Shown here piece by piece: positions 1 to 8,805 of a stretch of 8,805 bases of DNA. The notes beneath the pieces were generated by a model. That model was not told where the DNA came from. It saw nothing but the letters and a program-made list of their open reading frames with translations, and did no database searches. Position 1 is the first letter of the stretch. Every line of letters starts with the position of its first letter. A program made the translations under genes and the position numbers. Origin of the DNA: a virus (Duplodnaviria > Heunggongvirae > Uroviricota > Caudoviricetes); IMG/VR virus record IMGVR_UViG_2671180809_000010; one strand, given 5' to 3'.

Positions 1-558
1 CTAGATGGTGCTGCAACTGAGCATGACACGCTGTTACCACGATTCACCGATGATATAAGCCGTCAATCATGGGTTAGTGAAAAGGTCTTCTGTAACCTGC
101 CGTACAGCGATATTCCGTCGTTCCTCTTAAAAGCGTCTGAAGCGGATTTAGTAGCTTTCCTGATACCGCATAGAGCCAACACCAGCTACTGGCTTAGGCA
201 CATTTACAGCAATAACCACTGTCATGAAATCCGTATTCTTCATCGTGCAGTTAAATACCTTCCACCAGCAGGCCATAACGGGCTTACTATTCGTTCACCG
301 TTTCCTAGTGCAGTCGTTGTTTTTAAAAAAGAACCACGTAAGCACGAAATTACACAGACGGTTTGCTGTGGTGACACGCTATTACCGTTAACCATCATTA
401 ACAGAGGAGGCTTGAGAGGAAGACCCACCATTTACCCACCTGAGACGCTCGACAGCTTCATAAAACTATACAGGCAAGGAAAACCCATTAAGTGCATTGC
501 AGATGCTCTCAGAATGCCTCTGAGCACGTCATACAGGATTGCTCAAAGGTTGAGCTAA
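1..558 (+). CDS. DNA N6-adenine methyltransferase, phage Dam family, 5'-truncated by the window edge, with C-terminal helix-turn-helix extension
   Basis: Frame-1 translation is open from position 1 to TAA at 556-558: ...RFTDDISRQSWVSEKVFCNLPYS...HRANTSYWLRH...GLTIRSPFPSAVVVFKK...GRPTIYPPETLDSFIKLYRQGKPIKCIADALRMPLSTSYRIAQRLS. The (D/N)PPY-type motif position reads NLPY (94-105), and a PFPS-type motif follows, as in phage Dam-family methyltransferases (Pfam PF05869-like, by recall). The last ~45 residues look like a resolvase/Hin-type HTH. Confidence 0.7.
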   Translation, partial: LDGAATEHDTLLPRFTDDISRQSWVSEKVFCNLPYSDIPSFLLKASEADLVAFLIPHRANTSYWLRHIYSNNHCHEIRILHRAVKYLPPAGHNGLTIRSPFPSAVVVFKKEPRKHEITQTVCCGDTLLPLTIINRGGLRGRPTIYPPETLDSFIKLYRQGKPIKCIADALRMPLSTSYRIAQRLS

Positions 559-1474: not shown

Positions 1475-2428
1475 ATGGAAAAATTCCACATGTTTGATGA
1501 CCGTATTTATCAGATGACTAATGGCGTTAAAGCTGCCGACCGTATTATTTACACTGTCATGTTGAATGAACAAAAGTTTTATCACGATAAGGGGCAATAT
1601 TATACCCCTTCATATGCTCATCTTGGTCAGTATGCTGGAATCACAAGAACATCCGTGATTGCATGTATGAAACAACTTGAGGCACATGGTTTAATCAAGA
1701 AAACTAACGTTGCAAGCAATCAGTGTGTTATTAAAGTTTATTCACTTGATGAAGTACCGGAGGTTTTAACAGAGCTTACAGCTAAGGAAGCCAGAAAGGC
1801 AAAGCTGGAGTCTAAAGTTACTCAGTCAGTCAAGAAAGATGACCCACTGAGTCAAAATTCTTTACCCACTGAGTCAAAATTTTTTACTCAGTCAGTCAAA
1901 ATCTTTGACACGTATAATAACAGTAATAACAAGAAAGAACTTATTAATAACAATAAAGAAGATGACTTTGAAGAAGAATATTTTAAGAAGGGAGCTTCGC
2001 TCTGTGATTCACATGAATGTGATTCTCTTGGTATTGAAGAGGCTATTAAAGAGACTGTTAAAACATCTGACTTAGATGACCTTGATAGTGAAGCTGCTAA
2101 AGAGGTCGTTAAAAAGGAAGATAAAATCTCTGATGTGATTGCTAGTAGTGACCATAAAAACACACAGTGCCCCGCCACTGATGATGAATTACCGGATGTT
2201 GACCTTGATGATGAAGAAGACCCTGAAAAGGAATTGAAACGTGAACAGCGTAAAGCAGAAATTAAAGAAAGATTCAGAAATGCGAAGCTAAAGAACAAGG
2301 TTAGTGACCTCGATGACTTTGATGATAGTGACGATGATTTTACTTTTACACCAAAAAAGAAAACTCACACCGAGCCAAAGAAAGAAAAAGTTAAAGTCAG
2401 ACGTGTTTATGGTGGAGGAATGTTTTAA
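1475..2428 (+). CDS. Replication initiator / replisome organiser-like protein (winged-helix N-terminus, acidic low-complexity C-terminus)
   Basis: ATG 1475 is preceded by AAGGA (1463-1467) at 7-nt spacing, preferred over the TTG at 1418 of the ORF track. N-terminal ~95 aa (...YAHLGQYAGITRTSVIACMKQLEAHGLIKK...) resemble HTH_36-type replication-protein DNA-binding domains. The C-terminal two-thirds are D/E/K-rich. Iteron-like repeats lie inside the gene. Confidence 0.6.
   Translation: MEKFHMFDDRIYQMTNGVKAADRIIYTVMLNEQKFYHDKGQYYTPSYAHLGQYAGITRTSVIACMKQLEAHGLIKKTNVASNQCVIKVYSLDEVPEVLTELTAKEARKAKLESKVTQSVKKDDPLSQNSLPTESKFFTQSVKIFDTYNNSNNKKELINNNKEDDFEEEYFKKGASLCDSHECDSLGIEEAIKETVKTSDLDDLDSEAAKEVVKKEDKISDVIASSDHKNTQCPATDDELPDVDLDDEEDPEKELKREQRKAEIKERFRNAKLKNKVSDLDDFDDSDDDFTFTPKKKTHTEPKKEKVKVRRVYGGGMF
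1818..1899. repeat. Iteron-like direct repeats (putative replication origin) inside the initiator gene
   Basis: Identical 16-mer TTACTCAGTCAGTCAA at 1818-1833 and 1884-1899. Identical 18-mer ACCCACTGAGTCAAAATT at 1842-1859 and 1864-1881. The 18-mer pair is offset by 22 bp, so it sits in different reading frames and is conserved at the DNA level, not the protein level. The two repeat types share ACTCAGT in opposite orientation. Confidence 0.55.
1900..1985. other. AT-rich tract next to the iterons (candidate DNA-unwinding element)
   Basis: Sequence AATCTTTGACACGTATAATAACAGTAATAACAAGAAAGAACTTATTAATAACAATAAAGAAG... is markedly more A+T-rich than the flanking coding sequence. Confidence 0.4.
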
Positions 2429-2724
2429 TGAAAACTTATAATGGCGAGAGAAAATACCGTGACTATTTACTCAGACGTTACAGCATTTCTCGTGAAGGTT
2501 ACTTGATGAAAGATACTCACGGGGAAGTTTACCGGATTCGACCGAAGAAAGAAGGGAGGGATTATTATTTCGTCGATGATGTGACAGATTTAAAGATTGA
2601 CGCTTTGAAGTTTGCGGTGCTGTATCATTACGATTTATGGGATTCAGTCCACCAGCTACGATTAAAAGACGGTGACCCCGGTAATCTGAGGGCCACCAAT
2701 ATTATCAAGGGAAAGTGCCGGTAA
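2428..2724 (+). CDS. Hypothetical protein, 98 aa; weak resemblance to HNH_3/AP2-type small nuclease-like proteins
   Basis: ATG 2428 overlaps the upstream stop (TAATG). GGAGG at 2414-2418. The C-terminal ...VHQLRLKDGDPGNLRATNI... loosely recalls the H-x-DG-x-N-x-NL motif region of HNH_3 proteins; this is a weak, unverified match. Confidence 0.5.
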   Translation: MKTYNGERKYRDYLLRRYSISREGYLMKDTHGEVYRIRPKKEGRDYYFVDDVTDLKIDALKFAVLYHYDLWDSVHQLRLKDGDPGNLRATNIIKGKCR

Positions 2725-2733
2725 GGCCACCAG

Positions 2734-2910
2734 CTATTTATTTACTGAAATCTCTATCTCAACACGAAGAAGTTTAAGTCGAATTGTAAGCTTTGTCTTT
2801 TTTGTAATGACTCGATTCATAACGCAAAACACCAATAGCACAATAAATACCGCAAAGCCCAACGAGCTAAAACGATGAGATTCAATAATTGCTGTGAAAA
2901 AATCATGCAT
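2734..2910 (-). CDS. Small predicted single-pass membrane protein, 58 aa
   Basis: Minus-strand ATG at 2910 with AAAGGAAAA upstream; the ORF track starts at a GTG at 2940. MHDFFTAIIESHRFSSLGFAVFIVLLVFCVMNRVITKKTKLTIRLKLLRVEIEISVNK has one hydrophobic helix followed by a basic tail. It is the only opposite-strand gene in the window. Confidence 0.4.
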   Translation of the reverse strand: MHDFFTAIIESHRFSSLGFAVFIVLLVFCVMNRVITKKTKLTIRLKLLRVEIEISVNK

Positions 2911-2914
2911 TAAT

Positions 2915-2934
2915 TTTCCTTTTGTGAAAGGAAA
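2915..2934. promoter_or_regulatory. Perfect 8-bp inverted repeat TTTCCTTT-TGTG-AAAGGAAA over the RBS of the minus-strand gene
   Basis: Read directly. It lies in the divergent region between the minus-strand gene (start 2910) and the + strand gene starting at 3048. No T-tract follows on either strand, so it is not a typical intrinsic terminator. Confidence 0.4.
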
Positions 2935-3047
2935 CAGCACCTGTATCAGCCCCTACAACCATAGTATCATGTAAATGAGGTACTGACAATATGTTAAATA
3001 GATGTTAAGATTGTAGTATGAGTAAGAGATTTAAGGAGATTTTTACA

Positions 3048-3338
3048 ATGACTCACACAGTTACGCGCCTTTTGCCAGAGGCATTTGAACGACTGGCAGC
3101 AATCAAAGCCAAATATCCCGATATGAAGCACACAGCGCTTGTTGGGGAGATTTTAAAAGAGTCGGTAAACCTTAGCCCTTTCGATAACGTTAAGGGCGTC
3201 GCAGAGGGTTCTAAGGCCATCAGAATCACAACGGGCCAACTGGAACTACTCAAAGCACAGTCCGCAGTAGCAGGTTGCTCAATGATTCAGGTGTTAAGCG
3301 CTAAGGTCCATCAACTGGCGGATAGATTGGAGGTTTAA
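3048..3338 (+). CDS. Hypothetical protein, 96 aa, possible ribbon-helix-helix DNA-binding protein
   Basis: ATG 3048 has AAGGAG at 3033-3038 (9-nt spacer), preferred over ATG 3018, which has no SD. N-terminal TVTRLLPEAFERLAAIKAK has a strand-then-helix pattern like Arc/CopG proteins. Weak. Confidence 0.5.
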   Translation: MTHTVTRLLPEAFERLAAIKAKYPDMKHTALVGEILKESVNLSPFDNVKGVAEGSKAIRITTGQLELLKAQSAVAGCSMIQVLSAKVHQLADRLEV

Positions 3339-3559
3339 TGTGTTATAGGTTCCAATATTCCACACTTGGCCGCCACCTAATCAGACAGAATTTAGCAGAT
3401 GCTGAATTTGAAGATGTGACCCTCAAAGCAAACAAACGATTAAAACCCTCTCAAATCCACCAGCTTAAACACGAATTAAAGCCACTGGTAATACTCGACT
3501 ATAACGACCCTGAACAGCTTGAGCAGGGAATTAAGCTTATTTCTGAATGGGGTGCTTGA
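3338..3559 (+). CDS. Hypothetical protein, 73 aa
   Basis: ATG overlaps the upstream stop (TAATG at 3336-3340). GGAGG at 3329-3333. Confidence 0.5.
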   Translation: MCYRFQYSTLGRHLIRQNLADAEFEDVTLKANKRLKPSQIHQLKHELKPLVILDYNDPEQLEQGIKLISEWGA

Positions 3560-3774
3560 TGAAAACTATCACAGTACAACTTCAGACTAATAAAGCATTT
3601 CGTTATTTTGAAAACTTGCTTGAGTTATACGAAGGATGGGGAAGTATCCACGGCAAAGATGATATCTATCTTCACTTGTCAGCCCCTAACTATTCTCTGA
3701 AGACTCCGGTTAAGCAAAGCTGGTTAAAAGACTACGGTCACCAGATGGGGCTATTAGTCTCAGACTTGAGCTAA
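3559..3774 (+). CDS. Hypothetical protein, 71 aa (alternative start ATG 3547)
   Basis: ATG 3559 overlaps the upstream TGA (TGATG). The ORF track starts at 3547, which lacks an SD. Start choice is uncertain. Confidence 0.45.
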   Translation: MKTITVQLQTNKAFRYFENLLELYEGWGSIHGKDDIYLHLSAPNYSLKTPVKQSWLKDYGHQMGLLVSDLS

Positions 3775-3920
3775 AAACAGCAAAACATATCTCTCAGGCT
3801 TTACCAGACGCACCAGAAACGTTTTTAAGCCCCTAATCAGGGTAACTTAGGGAATCGCCTTAAGTGGTCTAAAAAAGGGGTTAAAACGTCTTAGAATGCG
3901 ATACAGGAAGGATTTTAAAA

Positions 3921-4226
3921 ATGAATTACCCAATGCAAATTATGGTTGACCAAGAAACCATGAATTGGTTGATTGACCTGAACAGGTCGGGCTTTAATAT
4001 CTATTTCATGCATTGTTTTGAAGCGTCAACGTATATTGACAAGCATATAATCAACGAAATTAAACTTGGTGACTATGTTCACAAGCTGGAAGTAACAGAC
4101 CCATACAATAAGCGCTTTATCATTGAAGAGTGCAATCGACTTGATTTAAGCCCTGAGCAATTATTGAAGCTGAATGTATTCTTGACCTATCAGAATGAAT
4201 TAAACCCTTACAGCGAGGTGATGTAA
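3921..4226 (+). CDS. Hypothetical protein, 101 aa
   Basis: AGGAAGGA at 3905-3912, 8 nt before ATG 3921. Clean ORF. Confidence 0.6.
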   Translation: MNYPMQIMVDQETMNWLIDLNRSGFNIYFMHCFEASTYIDKHIINEIKLGDYVHKLEVTDPYNKRFIIEECNRLDLSPEQLLKLNVFLTYQNELNPYSEVM

Positions 4227-4303
4227 TGACACTCGTTATTCTCTGGATGACTTTAGGGTTATTTGTTGGTTGCTGGGTAGGTAATACGGTAAATAAGAAT
4301 TGA
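4226..4303 (+). CDS. Possible small hydrophobic peptide, 25 aa (MTLVILWMTLGLFVGCWVGNTVNKN)
   Basis: ATG overlaps the upstream TAA (TAATG at 4224-4228). GAGGTG sits 6 nt upstream. Below the ORF-track size cutoff; coding status is speculative. Confidence 0.25.
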   Translation: MTLVILWMTLGLFVGCWVGNTVNKN

Positions 4304-4327
4304 TGTTACCAATCTGTTAAAAAGCTG

Positions 4328-4356
4328 TTGACAAATAACCTTAAGCATGAGATGAT
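4328..4356 (+). promoter_or_regulatory. Candidate sigma70-type promoter in the long intergenic region
   Basis: Perfect -35 TTGACA at 4328-4333, 17-bp spacer, -10-like GATGAT at 4351-4356. Consensus match only. Confidence 0.3.
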
Positions 4357-4364
4357 GGTAATAG

Positions 4365-4381
4365 GGAAGAGCAACTCTTCC
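4365..4381. repeat. 7-bp perfect inverted repeat GGAAGAG-CAA-CTCTTCC
   Basis: Read directly, just downstream of the candidate promoter. No T-tract follows. Confidence 0.5.
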
Positions 4382-4448
4382 TGAATTAAACTATTAATCA
4401 TTCTACATCAATGATAGTTATTCTGAAAGGTGCAATGCTTTTCGCTAC

Positions 4449-4478
4449 ATGACCTTTCAGGTTAGTCTGAGAGGTCAT
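4449..4478. repeat. 12-bp inverted repeat ATGACCTTTCAG-GTTAGT-CTGAGAGGTCAT (one mismatch)
   Basis: Read directly. No T-tract follows on either strand, so a protein-binding palindrome or RNA hairpin is more likely than an intrinsic terminator. Confidence 0.55.
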
Positions 4479-4504
4479 CTCGAAAAGTACTCTTGTTCAT
4501 TCGT

Positions 4505-4526
4505 TTGAATCCTTTTTGAATCCTTT
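4505..4526. repeat. Adjacent tandem 11-bp repeat TTGAATCCTTT x2
   Basis: Read directly at 4505-4515 and 4516-4526. Confidence 0.6.
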
Positions 4527-4701
4527 AGATGTTTTAATTTCTTCACCTTATGAATGGCCCTTTATAAGAAATTATCTAGGGCTATTCAGCTTTTAAAAAG
4601 CATACTTGGCAAACCGCCTTTTAAGTCTCTTCTAAGTTTAGATAGGCTGTCAGGTGTGCTTTTTAAAAACTGAAACACTTCCGCTTAGAAGAGGAAAAGC
4701 A

Positions 4702-5412
4702 ATGACAAATGATATTTACATTAATGGCAAAGTGATTGATAGCTTCAGTGACTGGTCGCCACAGACTGAACATCCAGCTATCACTATTCAGCGTAAAGAG
4801 CATGACAAGCGTATTGAGCTTGAGCAATCGCTAAAGATGTCACCAAAAACAACCATCTTTGTGTCTCCTGAGCCTCAAGAGATGCCTGATATTTGCAAGA
4901 GTGAAGCATTACTTGAGCTTGAAAAGAAATATTACCAACTGCTGAAAGAACAGCGCCTTAGATTAGATGACGCTTACAGCAAAGTTACCTTGATGCAATC
5001 AGCTATTGAGCCGTCAGAATTTGAGATTCAGGATGAATTGTCACAGAAACCATTTGTCTATTACCAATACGAAGATAATGATGGTTTTGGTACTTTTCAA
5101 GAAAACGTCGCAGCCGTGATTAGTAGTCTTCCTGCTGGACATCGAATTGTGAAGATGGTTAAGGCATCAAGAGGTGCTGGTCAGTTTATTTACATGACTA
5201 ATAAGAGCGATGAAGAACTCGCTGAAATTGCTAGACAGAACATCTTGGCATCACGTAACAAGCAACTTGATAATGTTAAGTTGTATCTCTCAAGAGAGCT
5301 TCAGGCTATGAAAGAGCTTGTGAAAGAATATGAAGATGCTAAGAAGATTGCTATGCAGGCTGATATTGAGCAGCTTACGAAGATTTCTAGCAAATATGCA
5401 AAGGCTATTTAA
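4702..5412 (+). CDS. Hypothetical protein, 236 aa
   Basis: ATG 4702 has GAGGA at 4691-4695 (6-nt spacer), preferred over the GTG at 4654 of the ORF track. Long clean ORF with no recognised domain. Confidence 0.65.
   Translation: MTNDIYINGKVIDSFSDWSPQTEHPAITIQRKEHDKRIELEQSLKMSPKTTIFVSPEPQEMPDICKSEALLELEKKYYQLLKEQRLRLDDAYSKVTLMQSAIEPSEFEIQDELSQKPFVYYQYEDNDGFGTFQENVAAVISSLPAGHRIVKMVKASRGAGQFIYMTNKSDEELAEIARQNILASRNKQLDNVKLYLSRELQAMKELVKEYEDAKKIAMQADIEQLTKISSKYAKAI

Positions 5413-8017: not shown

Positions 8018-8805
<788 letters not shown>

What the first reader, a model, noticed from the sequence alone, without database searches (positions are those of the whole stretch)
3048..4303. Cassette of five small, translationally coupled ORFs of unknown function
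Five small ORFs (96, 73, 71, 101 and about 25 aa) sit between the replication module and the late region; three are joined by overlapping stop/start codons (TAATG or TGATG). I recognise none of them, apart from a weak ribbon-helix-helix-like N-terminus on the first. Blocks of this kind in phage early regions often encode host-takeover or anti-defence proteins.
Basis: inference. Interest (0 to 1): 0.4.

Follow-up and report, generated by a model that had tools for sequence, protein, structure and literature searches.

The report
Small-gene operon of a phage satellite
The five small genes are real and conserved, but they lie in a decayed 11-kb chromosomal island of Shigella sonnei that looks like a parasite (satellite) of Felix O1-type phages, not in a phage, and they most likely form its regulatory operon, headed by a double ribbon-helix-helix DNA-binding protein.

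Summary
Observation confirmed. All five ORFs, their sizes and the three overlapping stop/start junctions are as described. All five evolve under purifying selection across 12 related loci. This includes the 25-codon ORF5, which is open in 12/12 loci.

The window is the IS-decayed Shigella sonnei copy of an ~11-kb integrative island. Its gene order is small and large serine recombinases, Dam, Rep, this cassette, tape-measure protein and baseplate protein. About 10% of complete E. coli genomes carry it, at three or more insertion sites. It has no capsid or terminase genes. Its tail genes are related to Felixounavirus, so it resembles the Vibrio PLE satellites.

- ORF1 is predicted to be a single-chain tandem ribbon-helix-helix protein. 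The best fold hits are F-plasmid TraY and archaeal-virus RHH proteins.
- The gene after ORF1 always starts on ORF1's stop codon and is exchangeable.
- ORF4 has two allelic forms and is always coupled to ORF5, a 21-25-aa membrane peptide.
- 11-bp-phased TGTTA repeats occur in the window only at the cassette's own promoter and at the near-invariant promoter right after ORF5. The same repeats are densely clustered in the terminal repeat of Ounavirinae phages.

Best reading: a satellite regulatory operon wired to helper arrival (confidence about 0.45). No evidence supports an anti-defence role.

The parts
2983..3011 (+). Promoter of the cassette (CTGACA-17-TAAGAT). The -35 is TTGACA in all relatives. 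It lies back-to-back with a minus-strand promoter (TTGTCA at 2989, TACTAT at 2961).
   Evidence: Consensus scan; alignment of 9 loci shows the block is conserved.
2992..3007 (+). Two TGTTA repeats 11 bp apart inside the promoter spacer; candidate operator.
   Evidence: TGTTA-N6-TGTTR occurs 3 times in the window, all at the two promoters. Expected 0.07; 0/200 shuffles reach 3. Same position in the 8 related loci whose fetched DNA includes this promoter (L001-L007, L011); in L014 the pair sits upstream of the -35 of its early promoter.
3048..3338 (+). ORF1, 96 aa: predicted single-chain tandem ribbon-helix-helix DNA-binding protein. Core gene of the island family.
   Evidence: AF2 topology b-a-a / linker / b-a-a, pLDDT 59.6. 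Foldseek best hits are TraY (prob 0.9, E 0.06) and viral RHH proteins (prob up to 1.0, E 1e-3). dN/dS 0.22. A 36%-identical homologue in L014 keeps HT.TR and IRIT in the two strands.
3338..3559 (+). ORF2, 73 aa: orphan protein whose start overlaps the ORF1 stop. First half of the exchangeable slot.
   Evidence: Open and 55% identical in L001/L009. Only 4 clusters among 1.84 billion representatives. Weak collinear similarity to the N-part of the 128/141-aa slot proteins (E 1e-3).
3559..3774 (+). ORF3, 71 aa: orphan protein coupled to ORF2. In the distant subfamily L014 its homologue is coupled directly to the ORF1 homologue.
   Evidence: 47% identity in L001/L009. 34% identity, E 4e-14, to L014:7965-8177, which starts on the stop of the ORF1-like gene.
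3775..3920 (.). Spacer between ORF3 and ORF4. No promoter or terminator was predicted. Its sequence co-varies with the slot allele, so it holds the recombination boundary.
3921..4226 (+). ORF4, 101 aa: core small protein with two allelic forms (A 101 aa, B 107 aa, 28-32% identical). The fold is uncertain.
   Evidence: AF2 pLDDT 59.8. Foldseek not significant. dN/dS 0.17-0.28.
4226..4303 (+). ORF5, 25 aa: single-pass hydrophobic micro-protein, translationally coupled to ORF4 in every locus.
   Evidence: 25 codons in 12/12 loci. TAATG overlap is kept with both ORF4 alleles. Frame control. A 21-aa hydrophobic peptide sits in the same place in L014. Mean Kyte-Doolittle hydropathy 1.9-2.4.
4304..4330 (+). 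Three 11-bp-phased TGTT(A/G) repeats abutting and overlapping the -35 of the next promoter.
   Evidence: The block is near-invariant in 12 loci and is the most widely conserved piece of the region in E. coli genomes.
4328..4356 (+). Promoter of the downstream tail-gene operon (TTGACA-17-GATGAT; CATAAT in most relatives). It marks the right-hand boundary of the cassette.
4362..4698 (+). Structured 5' leader of the tail-gene operon. Not part of the cassette but directly adjacent to it.
   Evidence: MFE -109.9 against -72 +/- 5 for shuffles, z -7.2. Conserved hairpins with some covariation.
2734..2940 (-). Divergent small ORF (58-68 aa, one hydrophobic helix) read from the back-to-back promoter.
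   Evidence: A 61-aa minus-strand CDS is annotated at the same place in L004 and L005.

Best explanation
The five ORFs form one rightward operon: promoter 2983-3011, ORF1-ORF2-ORF3, a 146-nt spacer, then ORF4-ORF5. It sits in the middle of an ~11-kb integrative, satellite-like island. The island's gene order is small serine recombinase, Dam, Rep, a 98-aa protein, this cassette, a 236-aa protein, a 68-aa protein, tape-measure protein, baseplate protein and large serine recombinase.

The island carries no capsid or packaging genes. Its tail genes are related to those of Felix O1-type (Ounavirinae) myoviruses. The copy in the window is the IS-decayed one fixed in Shigella sonnei.

The proposed mechanism is inference, as follows.
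- ORF1 is a single-chain double ribbon-helix-helix protein. It binds the 11-bp-phased TGTTA repeats. These lie in the spacer of its own promoter and abut the -35 of the near-invariant promoter just after ORF5, which drives the tail-gene operon. The cassette would therefore be the island's control module.
- The gene coupled to ORF1 is an exchangeable partner. It is either ORF2+ORF3 or a single 128/141-aa protein with a weak C-terminal HTH.
- ORF4 is a second conserved small protein. It is always coupled to ORF5, a 21-25-aa membrane peptide.
- The same phased TGTTA repeats are packed into the terminal repeat of the presumed helper phages. The switch is therefore probably tied to helper arrival. 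Either a helper TGTTA-binding protein acts on the island promoters, or helper DNA titrates the island's own binder.

Shown here: the genes are real and conserved; the operon anatomy; the island context; the predicted RHH fold; the statistics and positions of the repeats.

Inferred: DNA binding by ORF1; which protein reads TGTTA; the direction of regulation; helper dependence.
For: - Genes are real and conserved.
- Island context. It has the same gene order at yciI/tonB, ymdF/wrbA and inside yecE, and 534 of 5426 complete E. coli genomes match.
- Tail-gene link to Felixounavirus: window 8103-8538 is about 92% identical in DNA to many Felixounavirus genomes, and the TMP is 33% identical in protein. 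The host range of the cassette proteins is Escherichia, Shigella, Citrobacter, Kluyvera and Salmonella. This matches Ounavirinae hosts.
- ORF1 fold. The two predicted strands carry the invariant residues (HTVTR, AIRIT), and these persist in a 36%-identical homologue.
- Repeats: TGTTA-N6-TGTTR occurs 3 times in the window, only at the two promoters (expected 0.07). The promoter pair after ORF5 is at the same place in all 12 related loci; the pair in the cassette promoter is seen in the 8 loci whose fetched DNA includes it, and L014 has one upstream of its early promoter instead. There are only two other hits, one in flanking chromosome (L002) and one on the minus strand near the L014 early promoter, in about 220 kb.
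- Helper side: there are 16 hits in phage garuso (expected 1.06), 13 of them within about 750 bp. That region is conserved in 255 Ounavirinae records and coincides with an annotated terminal repeat.
- Background knowledge: RHH repressors such as Arc and Mnt bind subsites about one helical turn apart. F TraY is a single-chain double RHH.
- Precedent: PLE satellites with a serine integrase, RepA and their own TAC/TMP/BhuB (PMC12987554).
Against: - Both AF2 models are low confidence (pLDDT about 60).
- No RHH Pfam model matches ORF1. No sequence similarity to TraY was found. No internal repeat is detectable.
- The TGTTA pattern was defined after looking at the sequence, and its core is only 5 nt.
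- The repeats stay invariant while ORF1 diverges to 36% identity.
- ORF4, or the HTH-bearing slot proteins, could equally be the binder.
- The repeats in the phage terminal repeat could be packaging or replication signals, so the island copies might be cis sites for packaging rather than operators.
- No experimental evidence shows that the island is induced, replicated or packaged by any phage.
- In the window the -35 of the cassette promoter is mutated (CTGACA) and the island is decayed.
Confidence: 0.45

Rival explanations
1. Helper-interference or hijacking effectors. Most of the cassette proteins act on helper proteins rather than on DNA. Examples would be blocking the helper's own tape-measure or tail assembly (like PLE Rta), redirecting assembly, or changing lysis timing (ORF5 as a LidI-like membrane peptide). 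ORF1 would only be their regulator.
For: - The position between Rep and the tail genes of a satellite-like island.
- The families are orphans, restricted to these islands.
- Whole-gene allele swapping at the slot and at ORF4.
- The ORF2/ORF3-type slot mostly travels with window-like TMP alleles.
- A conserved membrane micro-peptide.
- Precedent in PLE11 for Rta together with the satellite's own TMP.
Against: - Within alleles, selection is purifying (dN/dS about 0.2), not diversifying.
- No similarity to any phage or defence protein.
- The association with TMP type is imperfect: L003 has the ORF2/3 slot with a 51%-identical TMP. It could simply reflect linkage.
- Nothing here shows any protein-protein interaction.
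Confidence: 0.25
2. A toxin-antitoxin or abortive-infection module. ORF1 would be an RHH antitoxin and autorepressor, with a coupled downstream toxin (ORF3 or the slot protein). ORF4/ORF5 would be a second pair whose membrane peptide kills the cell on infection.
For: - An RHH-first gene with an overlapping downstream small gene, and repeats in its own promoter, is the classic type II layout.
- ORF5 has the size and hydrophobicity of small membrane toxins.
- The ORF1-ORF3 coupling is ancient.
Against: - No toxin, antitoxin or defence HMM matches any of the five proteins.
- ORF1 is a double RHH filling nearly the whole protein. It has no obvious toxin-binding tail.
- In many islands the partner is replaced by an HTH-bearing protein.
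- The cassette is intact in a decayed island, which is neutral evidence.
Confidence: 0.1
3. One reading: early-region host take-over or anti-defence genes of a phage.
For: The genes are small, coupled and unknown, and lie next to a replication module.
Against: - The element is an 11-kb island without capsid, terminase or lysis genes.
- None of 50,697 phage genomes holds a homologue.
- A resident island has no obvious need to overcome the defences of its own host.
Confidence: 0.05
4. In this particular genome the cassette is an inert relic. The genes are intact only because the island decayed recently in clonal Shigella sonnei.
For: - The large serine recombinase is split by an IS.
- The baseplate gene is cut by an IS and frameshifted.
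- Part of the Dam gene is duplicated.
- The cassette promoter -35 is mutated.
- Identical proteins occur on 1000 or more S. sonnei contigs, as expected from clonality.
Against: All five reading frames are intact. The family-wide purifying selection shows that the genes function in intact islands. This rival concerns the window copy only and is compatible with any of the others.
Confidence: 0.15

Closest known systems
[quoted passage not shown]
   Same: - Small chromosomal island with a large serine recombinase at one end and its own replication initiator.
- A block of small unknown genes.
- A partial tail module (tape-measure protein plus the baseplate protein encoded next to it) related to that of a virulent myovirus.
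- No capsid or terminase genes.
- A highly conserved non-coding RNA-like region (PLE has SviR). (PMC12987554; island anatomy.)
   Different: - Different host family and a different presumed helper (Ounavirinae).
- No sequence relationship to PLE proteins was tested or seen.
- No tail-assembly chaperone, TcaP, NixI or LidI equivalents were identified.
- There is an extra small serine recombinase and a Dam methylase.
- No experimental evidence exists for induction or transfer.
F-plasmid TraY and archaeal-virus tandem RHH regulators (e.g. AvtR): single polypeptides with two ribbon-helix-helix units
   Same: ORF1 is predicted to have the same b-a-a + b-a-a topology at a similar size. These proteins are its best fold matches.
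   Different: - No detectable sequence similarity.
- The ORF1 model is low confidence.
- ORF1 sits at the head of an operon in an integrative island, not at an oriT.
Arc/Mnt/CopG-type RHH repressors that autoregulate by binding repeats about one helical turn apart in their own promoter
   Same: The proposed logic matches: first gene of the operon, with phased repeats inside its own promoter.
   Different: - Those proteins are single RHH units that dimerise. ORF1 would be a covalent pseudo-dimer.
- Binding was not tested.
- The same repeats also occur at a second promoter and in the helper phage's terminal repeat.
Type II toxin-antitoxin operons with an RHH antitoxin
   Same: An RHH gene followed by a small gene with an overlapping start, and repeats in the promoter.
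   Different: No toxin family is recognised. The partner gene is exchangeable, in some islands for an HTH-bearing protein. ORF1 lacks a separate toxin-binding tail.

Membership tests
Ribbon-helix-helix (RHH/MetJ-Arc) superfamily, for ORF1 | Strand-helix-helix unit(s) in which paired strands form the DNA-reading ribbon | tested here: met
   The AF2 model has E3-7 H10-22 H28-36, a linker, then E57-61 H62-75 H79-93. Mean pLDDT is only 59.6.
Ribbon-helix-helix (RHH/MetJ-Arc) superfamily, for ORF1 | Structural similarity to solved or annotated RHH proteins | tested here: met
   PDB: TraY chains rank top (prob 0.9, E 0.06, TM about 0.5), along with DndE and single-chain Arc. BFVD: top hits have prob 0.97-1.0 and E 1e-3 to 4e-2; the named ones are RHH/CopG-domain proteins. 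None reaches E <= 0.001.
Ribbon-helix-helix (RHH/MetJ-Arc) superfamily, for ORF1 | Match to a curated RHH sequence model | tested here: not met
   No Pfam, NCBIfam or PHROG hit at E <= 0.1-1. hhalign against TraY gave prob 0.8%. No internal repeat was found.
Ribbon-helix-helix (RHH/MetJ-Arc) superfamily, for ORF1 | Sequence-specific DNA binding through the ribbon | not testable with these tools
   Indirect evidence only. The strand residues are invariant and are kept in a 36%-identical homologue. Phased repeats lie in the flanking promoters.
PLE-like phage satellites | Integrative island with a large serine recombinase and its own replication initiator | tested here: met
   Relatives have a 506-547-aa recombinase at the right end and an HTH Rep. 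Rep hits PHROG replication-initiation families. In S. sonnei the recombinase is split by an IS.
PLE-like phage satellites | No capsid or packaging genes, but a partial tail module (TMP, baseplate hub, chaperone) related to the helper's | tested here: inconclusive
   The TMP matches PF20155 and PHROG TMP families. The protein after the TMP is homologous to the gene after the TMP in Felixounavirus. No chaperone homologue was found. There are no capsid or terminase genes within the 11 kb.
PLE-like phage satellites | Induction, replication and transduction that depend on a helper phage, with interference against it | not testable with these tools
   Indirect links to Ounavirinae only.
PLE-like phage satellites | Sequence homology to V. 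cholerae PLE proteins | not tested
Type II toxin-antitoxin module | A recognisable toxin family downstream of the antitoxin | tested here: not met
   No Pfam, NCBIfam or PADLOC hit for ORF2, ORF3, ORF4 or ORF5.
   The window is a chromosomal island. tblastn of the five proteins against 50,697 phage records found no match.
Small single-pass membrane peptides (holin-modulating or type I toxin-like), for ORF5 | A conserved short ORF encoding one hydrophobic helix | tested here: met
   25 codons in 12/12 loci, and a 21-aa analogue in L014. Hydropathy is 1.9-2.4. pN/pS is 0.35 against 1.1-1.2 in the other frames. Activity on the membrane could not be tested.

The most novel reading that the evidence does not exclude
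The cassette and its two flanking promoters form a switch that senses helper DNA, within the first enterobacterial PLE-like satellite. ORF1, a single-chain double RHH repressor, holds its own operon and the tail-gene operon silent by binding the phased TGTTA repeats. An infecting Felix O1-type genome carries dozens of the same repeats in its terminal repeat and replicates to high copy number. It titrates ORF1 away from the island promoters. This switches on the island's own tape-measure and baseplate proteins, which then build chimeric tails on helper parts. The satellite would be induced by helper DNA rather than by a helper protein.
Probability: 0.1. Interest if true: 0.85.

Novelty: new variant of a known kind. 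Interest (0 to 1): 0.58.

Why it matters
If the island is a satellite of Felix O1-type phages, it would be a PLE-like system in E. coli, Shigella, Salmonella and Citrobacter. I found no paper describing one in the held library. The 2026 PLE paper states that no other satellites had been reported to encode a tape-measure protein.

Felixounavirus phages are widely used for Salmonella and E. coli typing, biocontrol and therapy. About one in ten complete E. coli genomes carries such an island. A resident element that interferes with or exploits these phages would therefore affect host-range and efficacy predictions.

The cassette is the likely control point of the element. It offers a compact, testable system: one predicted double-RHH protein, two promoters with the same phased repeats, and the same repeats in the helper's terminal repeat. 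That system could show how a satellite of a virulent phage is switched on, which is still unclear even for PLE.

The work also shows that two conserved genes are missing from RefSeq annotation: ORF2 and the 25-codon ORF5.

Tried and rejected
Searches that gave nothing informative:
- Family searches of all five proteins in Pfam, PHROGs, NCBIfam and PADLOC found nothing.
- PDB sequence searches with profiles of ORF1, ORF4 and ORF2, and with ORF3 alone, gave only chance-level hits.
- Rfam over the whole window gave only sub-threshold noise.
- The concatenated ORF2+ORF3 query in the indexed protein search returned a single hit and was uninformative. Exact look-up then showed that both proteins are common in the collection.
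- A full HMMER search with ORF2 showed a tiny family and no informative fusion.
- The genome-contig scan with the ORF1 profile found only one locus.
- The leader and promoter block after ORF5 has no DNA match in phage genomes.
- Literature searches for an E. coli or Shigella satellite of Felixounavirus found none. The Felix O1 genome paper does not describe the TGTTA arrays.

Ideas tested and not supported:
- ORF1 is related in sequence to TraY: no.
- ORF1 has a detectable internal duplication: no.
- ORF1 and ORF4 are related: no.
- ORF4 is also RHH-like: the model has a suggestive b-a-a ... b-a-a layout, but Foldseek gave E >= 1.7 and prob 0.06. I do not claim it.
- A cassette protein is the recombination directionality factor of the large serine recombinase. 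I looked for co-variation between cassette alleles and insertion site or recombinase type across L001-L006 and L014. There was none, so this is not favoured.
- The tail-adjacent 68-aa and 236/252-aa proteins are homologues of the Felixounavirus tape-measure chaperones: no similarity.
Full report
**1. The observation**

- ORF1 3048-3338 (96 aa)
- ORF2 3338-3559 (73 aa)
- ORF3 3559-3774 (71 aa)
- ORF4 3921-4226 (101 aa)
- ORF5 4226-4303 (25 aa)

The stop/start overlaps are TAATG, TGATG and TAATG. Each start has a Shine-Dalgarno-like motif. The upstream alternative ATGs at 3018 and 3547 are not conserved in relatives.

**2. The ORFs are genes, not chance**

I fetched 11 related loci from E. coli chromosomes and IMG/VR prophage calls and compared them.
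- ORF1 is 96 codons everywhere, at 71-98% identity, with median dN/dS 0.22.
- ORF4 has two allelic forms: A (101 aa) and B (107 aa). They are 28-32% identical to each other. dN/dS within each form is 0.17-0.28.
- ORF2 and ORF3 exist as a second allele pair at 55% and 47% identity. Both frames stay open and dS is saturated.
- ORF5 is 25 codons in 12/12 sequences, and its ATG always overlaps the stop of whichever ORF4 allele precedes it. dS reaches above 1 while dN stays at 0.02-0.44.
- In a frame control for ORF5, only the ORF5 frame is open (12/12), with pN/pS 0.35. The other two frames give 1.1-1.2.

A more distant subfamily (L014) has the following:
- an ORF1 homologue (36% identity, E 3e-10);
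- an ORF3 homologue that starts on the ORF1-like stop (34% identity, E 4e-14);
- ORF4 form B;
- in ORF5's place, a different 21-aa hydrophobic peptide, again overlapping the upstream stop.

RefSeq annotation omits ORF2 and ORF5.

**3. What surrounds them**

The window is not a phage. Megablast against complete E. coli genomes finds the region in 534 of 5426 genomes, almost always on the chromosome. The annotated neighbourhoods show an ~11-kb island with a fixed gene order:
1. small serine recombinase
2. Dam methylase
3. HTH replication initiator
4. a 96-98-aa protein
5. the cassette
6. a ~236-aa protein (mis-named 'transposase')
7. a ~68-aa protein
8. tape-measure protein
9. 'phage baseplate protein'
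10. large serine recombinase

The island is inserted between yciI and tonB, between ymdF and wrbA, or inside yecE. It has no capsid, terminase or lysis genes.

Exact look-ups show that the window's own proteins are those of Shigella sonnei, found on 1000 or more contigs. In S. sonnei chromosomes the island sits at ymdF/wrbA and is decayed:
- the large recombinase is split by an IS3-family IS;
- the baseplate gene is cut by IS21 and IS1 insertions and frameshifted;
- the window also carries a 534-bp tandem duplication inside Dam;
- the cassette promoter has a mutated -35.

**4. Link to a helper phage**

- Window 8103-8538 (baseplate gene) is about 92% identical in DNA to some 200 Felixounavirus genomes. 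Pieces of the TMP gene also match.
- The TMP is 33% identical in protein to that of phage garuso. The 'baseplate protein' corresponds to the gene immediately after the TMP in that phage.
- The cassette proteins occur in Escherichia, Shigella, E. albertii, Citrobacter, Kluyvera and Salmonella. These are the hosts of Ounavirinae.
- The closest described parallel is the PLE satellites of Vibrio cholerae. They combine a large serine integrase and RepA with their own chaperone, TMP and baseplate hub, and build chimeric tails on the virulent myovirus ICP1 (PMC12987554).
- I found no paper describing an enterobacterial counterpart.

**5. The proteins**

None of the five matches Pfam, PHROGs, NCBIfam, PADLOC or PDB sequences. 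None has a homologue in 50,697 phage genomes.

*ORF1.*
- An AlphaFold2 model from 36 homologues has low confidence (pLDDT 59.6). Its topology is clear: strand-helix-helix, a disordered linker (residues 38-55), then strand-helix-helix.
- Foldseek against the PDB ranks F-plasmid TraY first (prob 0.9, E 0.06, TM about 0.5). I confirmed that these chains are TraY. TraY is a known single-chain double RHH. DndE and single-chain Arc follow.
- Against BFVD the top hits have prob 0.97-1.0 and E 1e-3 to 4e-2. The named ones are archaeal-virus RHH/CopG-domain proteins of 90-120 aa.
- The invariant residues concentrate in the two predicted strands (HTVTR, AIRIT) and in a G-C-S turn before the last helix. 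The strand residues survive in the 36%-identical homologue.
- Sequence-level tests were negative: hhalign against TraY and the two halves against each other.

*The slot after ORF1*. It always begins on ORF1's stop codon and takes one of three forms:
- ORF2+ORF3, in two divergent alleles;
- a single 128-aa protein;
- a single 139-141-aa protein.

The N-part of the long forms aligns weakly but collinearly with ORF2 (blastp E 1e-3; hhalign E 1.4e-3, prob 17%). Their C-part gives weak HTH_28/HTH_7 hits. ORF2's family has only 4 clusters among 1.84 billion representatives.

*ORF4.* The model (pLDDT 59.8) again shows b-a-a ... b-a-a. Its fold matches are not significant, and it is unrelated in sequence to ORF1.

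*ORF5.* It is a single hydrophobic helix (mean hydropathy about 2).

**6. The flanks**

*Upstream of ORF1.* A promoter (TTGACA in relatives, 17-nt spacer, TAAGAT) lies back-to-back with a minus-strand promoter. The minus-strand promoter reads a small hydrophobic ORF at 2734-2940.

*Downstream of ORF5.* Immediately after its stop comes the most conserved DNA of the region. It is the part found in the largest number of E. coli genomes and is nearly invariant in 12 loci. It contains TTGACA-17-(G/C)AT(G/A)AT at 4328-4356.

A 340-nt leader follows, up to the 236-aa gene. It folds far better than shuffles (z -7.2) and has conserved hairpins with some covariation. No promoter or terminator is predicted between ORF3 and ORF4. 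That spacer co-varies with the slot allele. The five ORFs are therefore most simply one operon, bounded by two promoters.

**7. A shared repeat**

- Both promoters carry TGTTA pentamers spaced 11 bp apart. One pair is at 2992-3007, inside the spacer of the cassette promoter. The others are at 4304-4330, abutting and overlapping the -35 of the downstream promoter.
- TGTTA-N6-TGTTR occurs three times in the window, only there. The expectation is 0.07, and 0 of 200 shuffles reach 3. Single TGTTA pentamers are not enriched.
- In the related loci, the pair at the promoter after ORF5 is at the same place in all 12. The pair in the cassette promoter is seen in the 8 loci whose fetched DNA includes that promoter, and L014 has a pair upstream of the -35 of its early promoter. 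There are only two other hits, one in flanking chromosome (L002) and one on the minus strand near the L014 early promoter, in about 220 kb.
- The pattern was defined after inspecting the sequence, so the statistics are indicative only.
- In the 85.8-kb genome of Felixounavirus garuso the same pattern occurs 16 times (expected about 1). Thirteen of these lie within about 750 bp of a 1.6-kb non-coding stretch, as (C/T)TGTTA(A/G) arrays in 11-bp register.
- That stretch is conserved in 255 Ounavirinae records, including Felix O1. In records that start at the physical end, it lies at position 1. In Citrobacter phage vB_CbrM_HP1 it coincides with an annotated 570-bp terminal repeat_region and holds 12-13 phased pairs.

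**8. Interpretation**

The best-supported reading is that the cassette is the control operon of a satellite-like island, and that ORF1 is its DNA-binding regulator. Arc- and Mnt-type RHH repressors bind subsites about one helical turn apart in their own promoters (established knowledge). ORF1 as a covalent double RHH reading phased TGTTA sites fits that pattern.

The presence of the same repeats in the helper's terminal repeat suggests that the switch is coupled to helper arrival. Two versions fit the data:
- a helper TGTTA-binding factor acts on the island promoters; this is favoured by the repeats staying invariant while every island protein diverges;
- the island's own binder is titrated by helper DNA; this is favoured by the conserved ORF1 strand residues.

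A third possibility is that the island repeats are cis sites for packaging or replication. These steps are inference.

Rivals are that most of the proteins are helper-interference effectors, a toxin-antitoxin-like module, or, for this decayed S. sonnei copy, an inert relic. I tested the idea that a cassette protein is the recombinase's directionality factor by looking for co-variation with insertion site. None was found (with 8, 12, 14-17).

**9. Verdict**

The 'phage early region, host take-over or anti-defence' framing is not supported.

The cassette itself is a moderately interesting set of orphan genes. Its setting is the more notable result. It appears to be an undescribed, widespread PLE-like island tied to Felix O1-type phages, with a compact and testable regulatory architecture.

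Noticed in passing
whole window; L001-L006, L014, L018-L021: The window is part of an ~11-kb integrative island: small and large serine recombinases, Dam, Rep, tape-measure and baseplate proteins, and no capsid or terminase genes. It matches 534 of 5426 complete E. coli genomes and is inserted at yciI/tonB, ymdF/wrbA or inside yecE. It looks like an undescribed PLE-like satellite of Felix O1-type phages.
   Followed up: partly
L015/L016 (phage garuso 49419-50172); L017 1-740 (Citrobacter phage vB_CbrM_HP1): Ounavirinae genomes carry dense arrays of 11-bp-phased TGTTA repeats in a non-coding stretch. The stretch coincides with an annotated terminal repeat and is conserved in 255 phage records. 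The Felix O1 genome paper does not mention them. Their function (packaging, replication or regulation) is unknown.
   Followed up: partly
window 4362-4698: The leader of the tail-gene operon is about 340 nt and strongly structured (z -7.2). It has a 5' hairpin (4368-4384) with AU/GC covariation and a conserved 12-bp hairpin (4449-4478). A long hairpin (4585-4674) is replaced by a different-sequence hairpin in L003 and L014. Its loop (CTCTTCTAAG, 4627-4636) is complementary to CTTAGAAGAG (4684-4693), next to the ribosome-binding site of the 236-aa gene. This suggests possible translational control or a regulatory RNA.
   Followed up: partly
window 2734-2940 (-), promoter 2989-2961: A small minus-strand ORF (58-68 aa, one hydrophobic helix) is read from a promoter whose -35 overlaps the -35 of the cassette promoter back-to-back. 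This layout is typical of a genetic switch. Two allelic versions exist among relatives.
   Followed up: no
window 50-349 and 584-883: A 534-bp tandem duplication (98% identical) lies inside the Dam methylase gene. It is absent from the S. sonnei chromosomes L018-L021 and from E. coli relatives. The C-terminus of the Dam protein carries a resolvase-type HTH_7 motif (window 412-558).
   Followed up: partly
window 8058-8805: The baseplate-protein gene is frameshifted after 57 codons. From about 8773 the sequence is the end of an IS that also matches S. sonnei plasmids. In S. sonnei chromosomes IS21 and IS1 follow, and the large serine recombinase is split by an IS3-family element, so this copy of the island is immobile.
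   Followed up: partly
window 2428-2724: The 98-aa protein after Rep is the most conserved protein of the island (84-89% identity in all loci, while Rep and the TMP vary from 37% to 95%). It has no family match. In L014 an HNH endonuclease of similar size sits further downstream instead.
   Followed up: no
L001-L006, left ends: The small serine recombinase lies on the minus strand in L001-L003 and on the plus strand in L004 and L006, with different protein accessions. This could be an invertible segment or simply different genes.
   Followed up: no
window 4654-5412: The gene that RefSeq calls 'transposase' (236 aa from ATG 4699) has no transposase domain or any other family hit. The name looks like an annotation error.
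   Followed up: partly
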